The notes under the pieces were generated by a model, which saw only the letters and a list, made by a program, of their open reading frames with translations, made no database searches and was not told the DNA's origin. The translations under genes were made by a program, and so were the position numbers. Below, one piece after another: positions 27,737-39,735 of a stretch of DNA of 64,000 bases (its first letter is position 1; every line of letters begins with the position of its first letter). This stretch comes from an uncultured archaeon (GTDB lineage Archaea; Nanohalarchaeota; Nanosalinia; Nanosalinales; Nanosalinaceae). Location of the stretch: the NCBI GenBank assembly GCA_964421955.1, contig CAYQYU010000001.1, forward strand, positions 64,001-128,000, in the 5' to 3' direction.

Positions 27737-27802
27737 GTCAAGGGCTTGACATTGCCAGTTTAAAGCATTTATCAAACAGGCAAGAACACCCTCCCTGAGG
27801 AC

Positions 27803-28117
27803 TCAGTCCAGGTTCTCCCAGTCCTGGAGCCAGTGTTCTACACGCTCTCTTTCACCGTTCCGAGCCCCGGTCAGGTCACAGTAGTAGTCGACCAGCGCTT
27901 CCTCCTCTGCAGGGTCCACAGTTGCGCCGCTGGGACGGTAAAGACGTGCCGTGCTCACGTCCTCCAGGATAACTATTGCACCCGTTTCACCAGCCCAGTG
28001 GATCTTGGAACCGGGCTCAACCGGCCTATAGTCCGGGTTCTCAAGCTCTGTTAGTTCTCCAGGAGCCTCTGCATCCGGATTCTCGAGATAACCCTCAAGA
28101 CAGCGGTATCCATTCAT
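27803..28117 (-). CDS. Hypothetical acidic protein
   Basis: GGAGGTGA SD 6 nt before ATG, TTTAAA box upstream. Confidence 0.75.
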   Translation of the reverse strand: MNGYRCLEGYLENPDAEAPGELTELENPDYRPVEPGSKIHWAGETGAIVILEDVSTARLYRPSGATVDPAEEEALVDYYCDLTGARNGERERVEHWLQDWENLD

Positions 28118-28174
28118 TGATTCTCACCTCCTTTCTTACCTCTAAAGGTTTTAAACCAGTCGGAAACAGAAGAT

Positions 28175-28349
28175 AGGCATTAGTCACTTGGGAGCCCACA
28201 TCGGAGCTCCCTGGATAAATTGGCGGTTGACCACCCTGTCTGAAAATCTGAATACACGTACGCGAGACGTGCTAAGAGCCGTCCCGGCACCAGCCGGGAT
28301 TACCAGGCAAATTGGCGGTAAAACCCTTCGGCAATTTTAGCTCTCATAC
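28175..28349 (-). ncRNA. Putative structured non-coding RNA of unknown family
   Basis: TATA-like TTTTTTAA at 28373-28380; several helices whose wobble pairs are G-U only on the minus strand; internal 11-nt repeat; no ORF covers it. Confidence 0.6.
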
Positions 28350-28397
28350 TAGGATTCTGGAGCAACTCAGGCTTAAAAAAGGTTCGGAACTCTGGTC

Positions 28398-29492
28398 TCA
28401 AATGTCGTTCTCCTCAACGTACTGTTCGACCTTTTCCCGGGCATCTTTTCTCTTCTGCTGGTGCTCGACAAGGAACTCTTCTATGCGGTCCTTCGCTATC
28501 TGTTTGAGTTCCCCGGAAAGCATCTCGCCGGACTTGTATTCCTGCTTGATGCGTCCCAGTTCATCATCGTCCCGGATCAGGTGGAACGCGAGCAGCTCGA
28601 AAACCATGTCCTCTTCAATCTTCGCACCCTTCTCTCTGTGCTCCTCCAGAGTATCGCGGCCGCCAGTCTTGGCCTCGTCTATCTTTTTCTTCGCCGCCTC
28701 GACCGAGTCAGTCAGTGCGATGTACGACTTCGGATTGCTCGAAGACATCTTCCCACCCTGTAGTCCGCGCATGAACTTGTTGTAGGTCGACGCGGGCTTG
28801 TAGAAGTCGAGGTCGCGGAACTTTCTAGCGACCTCACGGGTCAGTCTTATGTGAGGATCCTGGTCGACACCTACAGGAACCACTGTCGGTTTCTTGCCTC
28901 CTTTCTCCGGGAACTGCGGCCTCAGAATATCGGCGTACTGGGTCAGCGCAGACGCAATCTTTCCAGGCTCCGCGCTTCCATAGGTTGCCTCAACTTCGTT
29001 CTGGGTTAAATAGCGGGAGAACATTTTGCTCCTCACAAGGTGGTCGTTACCCGCCTTTGACTGGAAGTAGAAGTCCATTTTGTCAAGATCTATTCCCAGC
29101 GCTATGTAGTTCGTTAAGTACTCCTTTATCGCGGTCTCTCTGGCATCCTCGAGAGGTATTTCCCTTGTAGCGTATGACTCTATATCCGCGACGGTTAAGG
29201 TCAGGCGGGCGCCCATGTCCTGGTACATCTTCATCTGGTCGACCACAATTTTGTGACCGAAATGGGCGTCTCCCGACGGCATTATACCTGTTATAGCCGC
29301 CACTTCTTCTCCGTCTTCCCTGGAATCGAGAAATTCTTTCATGCCGCGGTGGCCGAAGATTATGCCTCTGGTTATGTACCGGTGGTCAGGCATCCTGTCC
29401 GCGATCTCATCTATAGGCGAGATACCGAACTCTTCCATCTTCTGCTTATAGTCTCCAAGTTCAACGTCTCCCCATGGGTCTATCTCTGGCAT
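28398..29492 (-). CDS. trpS: Tryptophan-tRNA ligase
   Basis: TGIMPSGDAHFGH (HIGH), VGVDQDPHIRLTR, KMSSS. Confidence 0.96.
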   Translation of the reverse strand: MPEIDPWGDVELGDYKQKMEEFGISPIDEIADRMPDHRYITRGIIFGHRGMKEFLDSREDGEEVAAITGIMPSGDAHFGHKIVVDQMKMYQDMGARLTLTVADIESYATREIPLEDARETAIKEYLTNYIALGIDLDKMDFYFQSKAGNDHLVRSKMFSRYLTQNEVEATYGSAEPGKIASALTQYADILRPQFPEKGGKKPTVVPVGVDQDPHIRLTREVARKFRDLDFYKPASTYNKFMRGLQGGKMSSSNPKSYIALTDSVEAAKKKIDEAKTGGRDTLEEHREKGAKIEEDMVFELLAFHLIRDDDELGRIKQEYKSGEMLSGELKQIAKDRIEEFLVEHQQKRKDAREKVEQYVEENDI

Positions 29493-39601: not shown

Positions 39602-39735
39602 GGGCCGGTAGCTCAGTCTGGCAGAGCGCGAGGCTCTTAAACACCTCAAGTCTCCGCAGGAGACGAGGACCCAGAAAATCTCCGATTTTCGATAGAGATA
39701 CCTCGTCGTCGTGGGTTCAAATCCCATCCGGCCCG
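39602..39735 (+). tRNA. tRNA-Lys(CTT) with 60-nt intron at 37/38 (39640..39699)
   Basis: GGGCCGG/CCGGCCC acceptor, CGAGG/CCTCG stem, CT-CTT-A|A; CTCT pairs with intron AGAG (BHB central helix). Confidence 0.93.

What the first reader, a model, noticed from the sequence alone, without database searches (positions are those of the whole stretch)
28175..28380. Unannotated ~175-nt structured RNA with its own promoter, an internal repeat and a possible pseudoknot or switch
Seen on the minus strand: TTTTTTAA box at 28373-28380. Helices UGAGAGCU/GGCUCUUA (28346-28339 with 28280-28273) enclose AAAUUG/CAAUUU and UCCCGGC/GCCGGGA, followed by GCACGU/ACGUGU, GGUGG/CCGCC and GGGAGCUC/GGGCUCCC. Four helices have G-U pairs that would be C-A mismatches on the plus strand, which fixes the strand. 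ACCGCCAAUUU occurs twice (28309-28319, 28217-28227); either copy can pair with the same partners, allowing alternative folds. CCUGGUAA (28307-28300) can pair long-range with UUA(U)CCAGG (28218-28210). I see no RNase P, SRP, 5S, C/D or hammerhead signature. The downstream ORF has its own TATA/SD, so this looks like a stand-alone RNA (inference).
Basis: partly seen in the sequence, partly recalled or inferred. Interest (0 to 1): 0.8.

Follow-up and report, generated by a model that had tools for sequence, protein, structure and literature searches.

The report
Conserved structured small RNA beside trpS
A roughly 170-base stretch between two genes of a tiny archaeal genome is kept almost unchanged in a related species and folds into several hairpins, so it is probably a new lineage-specific small RNA whose job is still unknown.

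Summary
The element is real. Against the one homolog found (G010, same trpS-to-ORF synteny), the 5' domain is 73/87 identical and the 3' domain 44/49. Flanking spacers are 20/49 and 17/47, and third codon positions of the neighbouring genes 0.39-0.50.

Helices P1, P2, P5 and P6 and a new local helix P3 hold in both genomes. The proposed pseudoknot, the AAAUUG/CAAUUU helix and the GCACGU hairpin do not. G-U pairs favour the minus strand.

A TATA box sits at this genome's usual distance for leaderless genes from a conserved AUG at 28347. No Rfam family matches. SRP and RNase P RNAs lie elsewhere.

Distribution is very narrow: 2 of 70 species genomes, plus one partial environmental variant. Two sequences give no statistical covariation, and no RNA-seq run was listed.

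Best reading: an independently promoted small RNA inserted between trpS and the ancestral spoIIM promoter (0.45). Main rival: a 5' leader of the orphan ORF104, possibly with a 15-codon leaderless ORF (0.30). It is a new family of a known kind, of moderate interest.

The parts
28373..28385 (-). Promoter P_A: GAACC followed by TATA-like TTTTTTAA. The T6 run may also terminate trpS.
   Evidence: Sequence. GAACCTT[T/A]TTTAA is conserved in G010 inside a spacer that is otherwise 20/49 identical. The TATA hexamer starts 31-32 nt (G000) and 29 nt (G010) before the conserved ATG. The genome-wide peak for leaderless genes is -33 to -27, mode -30. T runs of 6 or more within 40 nt after a stop occur in 1% of 746 ORF ends.
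28176..28347 (-). Conserved RNA core, from the predicted 5' end (AUG at 28347) to the end of homology after P6.
   Evidence: BLAST match to G010 at 79%, E 1.2e-32. Model R1 scores 195.5 and 210.7 bits. A third environmental variant aligns to 28176-28259.
28273..28346 (-). Helix P1, 8 bp (28346-28339 with 28280-28273), closing the 5' domain.
   Evidence: 8 of 8 pairs are kept in both genomes. One pair changed on both sides (G-C to A-U) and two changed G-U to G-C.
28300..28321 (-). Helix P3, 6 bp (UUACCG 28321-28316 with UGGUAA 28305-28300) with a 10-nt loop carrying CCAAUUUGCC.
Evidence: Appears in the folds of both genomes. 6 of 6 pairs are kept, with one G-U to G-C change.
28282..28299 (-). 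Hairpin P2 (UCCCGGC UGGU GCCGGGA).
   Evidence: 6 of 7 pairs are invariant in both genomes. The outer pair is C.A in G010.
28241..28272 (-). Variable linker with a species-specific hairpin and a U-rich stretch (UUCAGAUUUUCAG).
   Evidence: 14/34 identical, with a 6-nt indel. A UUYAGNUUU pattern is shared by eye.
28309..28319 (-). Repeat copy 1, ACCGCCAAUUU (5' strand and loop of P3).
   Evidence: Chance of such a repeat is 14/5000.
28217..28227 (-). Repeat copy 2, ACCGCCAAUUU (3' strand of P5 and the linker after it).
   Evidence: Weak further likeness of the flanks (AGGGU before, YCCWGG after) is seen.
28222..28235 (-). Hairpin P5 (GGUGG UCAA CCGCC).
   Evidence: Invariant in both genomes, so it gives no evidence from variation.
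28190..28211 (-). Hairpin P6 (GGGAGCUC CGAUGU GGGCUCCC). A possible extension, AUU..UCC with GGA..AAU, reaches about 28179.
   Evidence: 7 of 8 pairs are kept in G010, with one A-U to G-U change. The extension was predicted on the alignment.
28300..28347 (-). 15-codon ORF, MRAKIAEGFYRQFAW, starting at the predicted 5' end. G010 has 16 codons, MRTEISSEGFYRQFGR.
   Evidence: Read. A 3-nt indel keeps the frame. There are no synonymous changes in the 7 conserved codons, and 4 or more of the 6 changed positions alter the residue.
28162..28175 (-). Pyrimidine-rich tract UAUCUUCUGUUUCC after the core, a candidate weak termination zone.
   Evidence: G010 and the third variant are also U/C-rich here; the third variant has a U4 run. 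No T run of 4 or more in G000 or G010.
28147..28160 (-). P_B: ACTGGTTTAAAACC, a TATA-like box matching the spoIIM promoter of relatives.
   Evidence: GTTTAA lies between trpS and spoIIM in 11 of 28 syntenic loci, for example AACTGGTTTAAACC. The third variant has TTATTTAAAA in the same register. The hexamer starts 38 nt before the ORF104 ATG, a distance seen in 2 of 568 long ORFs.
28122..28133 (-). Shine-Dalgarno block AAGGAGGUGAGA of ORF104.
   Evidence: 12 of 12 identical in G010, inside a poorly conserved spacer. GGAGG starts at -14, within the genome-wide SD peak of -17 to -10.
27803..28117 (-). ORF104, an orphan acidic protein directly downstream.
   Evidence: 58-59% identical in G010. No Pfam, NCBIfam or PADLOC family. 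5 representatives among 1.84 billion proteins.

Best explanation
This is a lineage-specific small RNA gene. Transcription starts from its own TATA-type promoter (28380-28373) at or next to A28347.

The roughly 170-nt transcript has two folded parts:
- A 5' three-way junction (P1 enclosing P3 and P2).
- A 3' pair of hairpins (P5, P6).
- A variable, U-rich linker joins them.

The RNA most likely ends, leakily, in the pyrimidine-rich tract before the next TATA box (28160-28147). That box is the old spoIIM promoter and now serves ORF104-spoIIM.

Inferred mechanism: the RNA acts through its two invariant ACCGCCAAUUU motifs. Each sits at the edge of a helix with its AAUUU part exposed. They would be contact sites for a protein or for another RNA.

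Shown: conservation, fold consistency, strand, promoter geometry and the insertion history.
Inferred: the ends of the transcript, its independence from ORF104 and its mode of action.
For: 1. Purifying selection acts on the nucleotide sequence. The core blocks are 84-90% identical, flanking spacers 36-41%, and third codon positions 39-50%.
2. Conservation starts at the predicted +1 and stops after P6.
3. The promoter geometry equals that of this genome's leaderless genes. 118 of 568 long ORFs carry a TATA-like hexamer at -33 to -27; P_A sits at -31/-32 in G000 and -29 in G010.
4. 66 of 68 helix cells pair. There is one double compensatory change and four one-sided G-U/G-C or A-U/G-U changes. 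The 8 G-U cells would be A.C mismatches on the other strand.
5. The layout reads as an inserted independent gene. In 22 of 28 syntenic loci trpS is followed directly by a TATA box and a leaderless spoIIM. In G000 that box survives downstream of the RNA.
6. A third environmental variant has a U4 run and TTATTTAAAA in the same register after the core.
7. Stable helices lie at both ends of the RNA.
Against: - No expression data; transcript ends are not observed.
- With two full sequences covariation is not significant: 259 of 500 shuffles do as well.
- Fold stability is only modestly above shuffles, and the opposite strand scores the same.
- There is no T run of 4 or more between P6 and ORF104 in G000 or G010.
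- P_B lies 38 nt from the ORF104 start, a distance seen in 2 of 568 ORFs, and is weakened to TCTAAAA in G010. The Shine-Dalgarno block is 12/12 conserved. Together these argue that upstream-initiated transcripts reach ORF104.
- No conserved target was found for the repeat. Its 10-nt complement occurs at two other G000 sites, a pre-tRNA-Val and the middle of a gene, and at none in G010.
- The RNA is found only next to ORF104.
Confidence: 0.45

Rival explanations
1. The element is a cis-acting 5' leader. Transcripts from P_A run through the structured core into ORF104-spoIIM (perhaps also pheS). The core would control their stability or translation. The 15/16-codon leaderless ORF at the very 5' end could serve as a ribosome-dependent sensor, because translating it would melt P1 and P3.
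For: - Same strand as ORF104 and directly upstream of it. The RNA occurs only with the ORF104 subgroup: both are in G000 and G010, and neither is in the other 68 genomes except a weak ORF104 hit elsewhere in G065.
- The SD block is 12/12 conserved, and P_B is too close for it to be included in a P_B transcript.
- P_B is degenerate in G010.
- No T-run terminator follows P6.
- In G015/G066 the promoter of the distant ORF104 homolog sits directly after trpS, as P_A does here.
- The ATG lies exactly at leaderless distance from the TATA box in both genomes, and a 3-nt indel keeps the frame.
- An alternative hairpin GGACG/CGUCU that excludes P1 is within about 3 kcal/mol of the best fold in both genomes.
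Against: - 47-55 poorly conserved nucleotides (17/47 identical), containing a promoter-like box, separate P6 from the SD. The SD is not consistently sequestered: mean unpaired probability is 0.19 in G000 and 0.51 in G010, with non-conserved partners.
- P_B is conserved in G000 and in the third variant.
- The short ORF shows no coding-type conservation. There are no synonymous changes across 7 conserved codons, and the changes elsewhere mostly alter residues.
- Only 2 Phe, 1 Tyr and 0-1 Trp codons, with no runs.
- G015 and G066 express the homologous ORF without any such leader.
- From my own knowledge, ribosome-dependent attenuation is not established in archaea.
Confidence: 0.3
2. The primary product is the 15/16-residue peptide of a leaderless micro-gene, and the RNA structure is secondary.
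For: A conserved ATG lies at leaderless distance from a TATA box. The TAA stop is conserved and the indel preserves the frame.
Against: - A 15-codon open frame is expected by chance about half the time (my estimate, (61/64)^15).
- Conservation is as strong or stronger after the stop codon (P2, P5, P6).
- There are no synonymous differences in the conserved codons, and the N-terminal changes follow P1 pairing rather than the residues.
Confidence: 0.07
3. There is no RNA function on the minus strand. The conservation reflects DNA-level sites (for example two operator-like 11-bp repeats), an antisense plus-strand transcript, or a recent relic of an insertion.
For: - The plus strand folds as well by z-score.
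- The near-palindromic TATA at 28149-28155 could fire in the opposite direction.
- Distribution is very narrow, 2 of 70 genomes.
- The site is an insertion hot spot.
Against: - 8 G-U cells in the helices become A.C mismatches on the plus strand, against 2 cells that would gain a pair there.
- The P1 strands, 60 nt apart, changed in a compensatory way.
- Divergence of the neighbouring genes is near saturation at silent sites, so this is not a recent relic.
- Plus-strand reading frames differ between the two genomes.
Confidence: 0.1

Closest known systems
Intergenic small RNAs of halophilic archaea, e.g. the 613 intergenic sRNAs of a halite community (Gelsinger et al. 2020, PMC7002113; I read passages only)
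   Same: An intergenic, promoter-preceded, 50-500-nt structured transcript in a halophile with no Rfam family. That paper mentions one conserved Nanohaloarchaea sRNA of 266 nt (STRG.4577.1).
   Different: No expression data exist here. That paper's structure modelling required at least 14 database matches, whereas this element was found in only 2 of 70 genomes, so it is probably a different RNA. The sequence of STRG.4577.1 is in supplements I could not see.
Leaderless short-ORF attenuators of mycobacteria (bioRxiv 10.1101/834739; I saw only the search listing and the start of the abstract)
   Same: A short ORF begins at the very 5' end of a transcript, ahead of downstream genes.
   Different: Those ORFs are rich in the sensed codon (polycysteine). 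This one has no codon run. It is in an archaeon, and read-through into the downstream gene is unproven.
Archaeal SRP RNA (RF01857), 5' Alu-like domain
   Same: By recall only, CCUGGUAAUCCCGGC looks like the Alu-domain sequence.
   Different: The true SRP RNA of this genome lies elsewhere (G000:C1:9831-10094, 124.5 bits). The element has no RF01857 hit even at E up to 10.
Protein-titrating sRNAs with repeated loop motifs (the CsrB/RsmZ type; recalled, not tested)
   Same: A repeated short invariant motif is displayed on a folded scaffold.
   Different: There are only two copies. The motif differs, no partner protein is known, and no such system is known to me in archaea.

Membership tests
Any Rfam 15 family (SRP, RNase P, tRNA, C/D, H/ACA, hammerhead, riboswitches and others) | Covariance-model score at or above the family's gathering threshold | tested here: not met
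   At gathering thresholds the window gave 3 tRNA matches only. At E up to 10, the 4 matches in 27900-28600 all lie at 28004-28172, outside the core, and are far below threshold. The same holds for G010: 4 matches, best 17 bits against a threshold of 50.
Archaeal SRP RNA / RNase P RNA | Being the genome's copy of that RNA | tested here: not met
   SRP RNA is at G000:C1:9831-10094 (124.5 bits). The best RNase P candidate is at C12:6170-6475 (49 bits, below the threshold of 84).
Stand-alone archaeal small RNA | Own promoter | tested here: met
   A conserved TATA box lies at this genome's own TATA-to-start distance. This is sequence evidence only.
Stand-alone archaeal small RNA | Discrete transcript with a defined 3' end, expressed | not testable with these tools
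   No listed holder of the sequence is an RNA run. Only DNA contigs could be laid.
Structured RNA in general | Statistically supported covariation | tested here: inconclusive
   Two sequences gave 1 double and 4 one-sided changes. 259 of 500 shuffles do as well.
Riboswitch / cis-regulatory leader | An expression platform that links the conserved fold to the SD or to a terminator | tested here: not met
   The conserved core does not consistently pair with the SD. There is no T run of 4 or more after P6. A 47-55-nt unconserved spacer intervenes.
Ribosome-dependent attenuator (leader peptide) | Short ORF at the 5' end of the leader | tested here: met
   15 codons in G000 and 16 in G010, with a conserved ATG and TAA.
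Ribosome-dependent attenuator (leader peptide) | A run of regulatory codons, and mutually exclusive hairpins ending in a terminator | tested here: not met
   2 Phe codons and no run. The alternative fold using repeat copy 1 is 11 kcal/mol worse in G010. No U tract follows any hairpin in both genomes.
Type III toxin-antitoxin RNA (ToxI-like) | Tandem array of repeats of about 30-40 nt directly before a toxin gene | tested here: not met
   There are two 11-nt copies, 92 nt (G000) and 99 nt (G010) apart. 0 of 7 ORF104-family members match any PADLOC model. The repeat-length criterion is recalled.

The most novel reading that the evidence does not exclude
The element is a ribosome-sensing leader in a DPANN-type archaeon. 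A leaderless 15-codon ORF at the 5' end of the transcript, embedded in helix P1/P3, couples its own translation to refolding of the leader. That would set how much transcript reaches ORF104-spoIIM and the phenylalanyl-tRNA synthetase gene further downstream. This would be an archaeal counterpart of bacterial leader-peptide control of an aminoacyl-tRNA synthetase operon.
Probability: 0.1. Interest if true: 0.75.

Novelty: new member of a known kind. Interest (0 to 1): 0.4.

Why it matters
Almost nothing is known about regulatory RNAs in the very small, host-dependent halophilic archaea. Here is a compact element of about 170 nt kept under strong selection in a 0.92-Mb genome that has little spare DNA, so it is likely to do something useful.

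It is also a clean case of a new RNA gene (or leader) inserted with an orphan protein gene into an otherwise fixed trpS-spoIIM-pheS gene order.

The narrow distribution (2 of 70 species genomes) limits its general importance. It would rise a good deal if the 5' short ORF proved to act as a translational sensor.

Tried and rejected
- **Known RNA families:** none matches.

- **More homologs, all without result:**
  - BLAST over 41 genomes found only G010.
  - Model R1 over 70 genomes (order and phylum are the same set) found only G000 and G010. There were also two noise hits of 13.7 and 17.2 bits.
  - 28 syntenic trpS loci gave 0 matches at E up to 10.
  - A 19-mer scan of genome contigs gave 4 bacterial hits, about the number I expect by chance. 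The one I read lies in a coding region.
  - A two-repeat pattern in metagenome contigs gave 63 loci, and 0 matched R1.
  - Viral contigs gave 0 and 3 loci, and only the GC hairpin matched.
  - P0004 has no relative in viral contigs.

- **Expression:** no RNA holder was listed.

- **tRNA idea:** the element has no T-loop. The 10-nt complement of the repeat in pre-tRNA-Val exists in G000 but not in G010, so I take it as chance. The other G000 site lies in the middle of a gene.

- **Coding on either strand:**
  - A 50-codon frame is open in both genomes on the minus strand, but it has no start codon until late and most changes alter residues.
  - Plus-strand frames differ between the genomes.

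- **MITE or target-site duplication as the origin of the 11-nt repeat:** the segment between the copies has no terminal inverted repeats (by eye).

- **Tandem-domain idea:** likeness beyond the 11-mer is weak, and the two copies sit in different folds.

- **ORF104 function:**
  - No Pfam, NCBIfam or PADLOC hit.
  - The AlphaFold model (pLDDT 77) has no PDB match at E 0.001 or better.
  - The ESM Atlas gave no usable hit.

Full report
**Setting**

The finding lies in a 280-nt gap (28118-28397) on the minus strand. Upstream is a tryptophanyl-tRNA synthetase gene (28398-29492, PF00579, E 3e-39). Downstream is a 104-codon ORF with no Pfam family (27803-28117).

Further downstream on the same strand are a SpoIIM-family gene and pheS. 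The genome (G000) has 922,649 bases in 27 contigs and 51% G+C.

**Observation**

- An exact direct repeat of 11 nt or more arose in 14 of 5000 shuffles of the region.
- The plus strand of the same range gives z -2.65, 2 of 200.
- Trimmed to the conserved core, the minus strand gives z -2.31 (7/300) in G000 and -1.54 (21/300) in the homolog. The opposite strand gives -2.41 and -2.04.

Thermodynamics alone therefore neither proves the fold nor fixes the strand.

**Known families**

- Rfam at gathering thresholds finds three tRNAs in the window and nothing here.
- At E up to 10, the four weak matches in 27900-28600 all lie at 28004-28172, outside the core.
- The homologous locus in G010 gives four matches far below threshold.
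- The SRP RNA lies elsewhere in the genome. So does the best RNase P RNA candidate, which scores 49 bits, below the threshold of 84.

**Homologs**

- BLAST of the gap against 41 genomes gave one real match: G010, 79% identity over 152 nt, E 1.2e-32. All other matches were short, with E 0.012 or worse.
- G010 has the same order: trpS, the element, then a 58-59% identical ORF.
- A covariance model of the two sequences (R1, 34 pairs) found only G000 and G010 among 70 genomes. Order and phylum are the same 70 genomes here. Two further hits of 17.2 and 13.7 bits at E 0.17 and 0.48 I take as noise.
- R1 found nothing at E up to 10 in 28 syntenic trpS loci.
- Pattern scans of genome, metagenome and viral collections gave only chance matches.
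- Laying contigs of a second sample of the probable source study (X3) showed a G010-like contig. It also showed a 199-nt contig from a third lineage, which aligns to 28176-28259 with 10 differences.

**Selection**

Identity between G000 and G010:

| Region | Identity |
|---|---|
| 5' domain | 73/87 |
| 3' domain | 44/49 |
| Linker between the domains | 14/34 |
| Spacer between the trpS stop and the core | 20/49 |
| Spacer between the core and the Shine-Dalgarno block | 17/47 |
| Third codon positions, trpS | 0.50 |
| Third codon positions, ORF104 | 0.39 |

The core is under strong constraint at the nucleotide level, and this is not recent transfer.

**Fold**

Both sequences fold alike:
- P1 (8 bp) encloses P3 (UUACCG/UGGUAA, new here) and P2.
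- A species-specific hairpin follows in a U-rich linker.
- Then come P5 and P6, with a possible extension of P6.

Of 68 helix cells, 66 pair. P1 has one G-C to A-U double change and two G-U to G-C changes. P3 and P6 have one one-sided change each. With two sequences this is not significant: 259 of 500 shuffles do as well.

Eight cells are G-U and would be A.C on the plus strand, while two A.C cells would pair there.

The U-to-C change that breaks it turns a G-U into a G-C in P3. Position 28211 is G, A and C in the three lineages.

An alternative fold using the first repeat copy is 3 kcal/mol from the optimum in G000 but 11.4 in G010. The hairpin GGACG/CGUCU, which excludes P1, is about 3 kcal/mol away in both, but it is invariant and so cannot be tested.

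**Promoter and 5' end**

In this genome, TATA-like hexamers pile up 33 to 27 nt (mode 30) before the first ATG in 118 of 568 long ORFs. This is the signature of leaderless genes (the ORF set is crude).

The box at 28380-28373 places such a hexamer 31-32 nt before a conserved ATG at 28347. In G010 the distance is 29 nt. GAACCTT[T/A]TTTAA is conserved while the 24 nt between box and ATG are not. So a transcript starting at about 28347 is well supported by sequence.

The T6 run may also end trpS transcription. T runs of 6 or more occur within 40 nt after 1% of 746 ORF ends.

**The short ORF**

That ATG opens 15 codons (MRAKIAEGFYRQFAW) in G000 and 16 (MRTEISSEGFYRQFGR) in G010, ending at a conserved TAA. 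A 3-nt indel keeps the frame.

Against a conserved peptide:
- The seven shared codons show no synonymous change.
- The other changes mostly alter residues and follow P1 pairing.
- Conservation is as strong after the stop codon.

A 5'-terminal AUG may still be translated in a leaderless-type organism. That is established for haloarchaea by recall and was not tested here.

**History of the site**

In 22 of 28 loci holding both genes, trpS is followed within about 110 nt by spoIIM. In 11 of the 28, the motif GTTTAA, often as AACTGGTTTAAAC, lies between them, about 29 nt before the spoIIM start where I counted.

Six loci carry insertions:
- G000 and G010 have the element plus ORF104.
- G015 and G066 have a 115-116-codon ORF that aligns with ORF104 at 22-24% identity. 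It has no element, and its own TATA box sits right after trpS.
- G056 and G068 have two genes on the other strand that look like a PIN/RHH pair (by eye).

G050, in the same genus as G010, has no insertion.

In G000, ACTGGTTTAAAACC (28160-28147) lies between the element and ORF104. G010 has TCTAAAACCAGTG there. The third lineage has a U4 run followed by TTATTTAAAA in the same register.

This looks like an RNA gene with its own promoter placed upstream of the old spoIIM promoter, with ORF104 placed behind that promoter.

**Stand-alone RNA or leader?**

For stand-alone:
- The layout just described.
- The sharp end of conservation after P6.
- The pyrimidine-rich tract after P6 in all three lineages.
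- The retained second TATA box.

For a leader:
- That second box starts 38 nt before the ORF104 ATG, a distance seen in 2 of 568 ORFs. The predicted start falls on or after the Shine-Dalgarno block.
- The block AAGGAGGUGAGA is nonetheless 12/12 identical and sits at the usual -14.
- G010's box is weak.
- No T run of 4 or more follows P6.
- The element is found only with ORF104.

The conserved core does not consistently sequester the Shine-Dalgarno block.

The two readings can both be true if termination is leaky. I put 0.45 on an independent small RNA and 0.30 on a leader.

**Mode of action**

This part is inference. Each invariant ACCGCCAAUUU copy has its first bases in a helix and AAUUU exposed, so I take them as contact sites.

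A simple target search does not support base pairing. The 10-nt complement occurs at two other G000 sites, a pre-tRNA-Val and the middle of a gene, and nowhere else in G010.

**ORF104**

- It belongs to a family with 5 representatives among 1.84 billion proteins.
- It matches no Pfam, NCBIfam or PADLOC model.
- Its model (pLDDT 77, a sheet of four to five strands followed by two helices) has no PDB match at E 0.001 or better.

**Literature**

- Two full-text searches found no description of this RNA: Nanohaloarchaea with non-coding RNA, and DPANN/Nanohaloarchaeota with small RNA, riboswitch or structured RNA.
- Gelsinger et al. 2020 (PMC7002113, passages read) mention one conserved Nanohaloarchaea sRNA of 266 nt. 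Their method needed at least 14 database matches, so it is probably another RNA. Its sequence is in supplements I could not see.

**Verdict**

This is a real, conserved and probably transcribed structured element. It is a new family of a known kind, with very narrow distribution and unknown function. The pseudoknot and switch claims are not upheld, and stand-alone status is open.

Noticed in passing
window 27776-28397 and loci L089-L118: The short gap between trpS and spoIIM is an insertion hot spot. 22 of 28 relatives have no insert there. 2 have the RNA plus ORF104. 2 have a distant ORF104 homolog without the RNA. 2 (G056, G068) have a two-gene pair on the other strand that looks like PIN plus ribbon-helix-helix, judged by eye with no family search.
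   Followed up: partly
window 27776-27802: In G000 spoIIM (TTG at 27775) follows ORF104 after 27 nt, preceded by GGGAGGGUG. In most relatives spoIIM is leaderless behind its own TATA box. The gene seems to have switched from leaderless to Shine-Dalgarno-led translation after the insertion (by eye).
   Followed up: no
run X3, record 2 (199-nt contig) on window 28176-28259: A third-lineage copy of the 3' half of the element. Its 30 letters upstream of 28259 do not match the 5' domain, but share TCCAGAA..CTAG with the G000 promoter-to-start spacer. The 5' domain may be absent in that lineage, or the short contig may be chimeric.
   Followed up: partly
window 28183-28335, minus strand: A frame of 50-51 codons is open across the whole core in both G000 and G010, and the 6-nt indel keeps it open. 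It has no ATG, GTG or TTG until late, and most differences change the residue. I take it as a by-product of conservation.
   Followed up: partly
G000 whole genome; window 39602-39735 (+): ARAGORN with intron search calls introns in 29 of 40 tRNA genes, many of 60-130 nt. Several expected anticodons (such as Asp GTC and Gly GCC) are not called at all. The window's intron-bearing tRNA at 39602-39735 was found by Rfam but missed by the default ARAGORN run.
   Followed up: no
G000:C12:6170-6475 (+): The best RNase P RNA candidate scores only 49 bits against the archaeal model's threshold of 84, so it is a divergent RNase P RNA.
   Followed up: no
window 27803-28117 (-): ORF104 belongs to a tiny orphan family of acidic proteins of about 100-130 residues, with 5 representatives in 1.84 billion proteins. 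The predicted fold is a sheet of four to five strands followed by two helices, with no PDB match.
   Followed up: partly
G000:C6:15733-15742 (-): The pre-tRNA-Val(GAC) carries a 10-nt perfect complement of the repeat motif across its 3' intron-exon border. It is not present in G010, so I take it as chance.
   Followed up: yes
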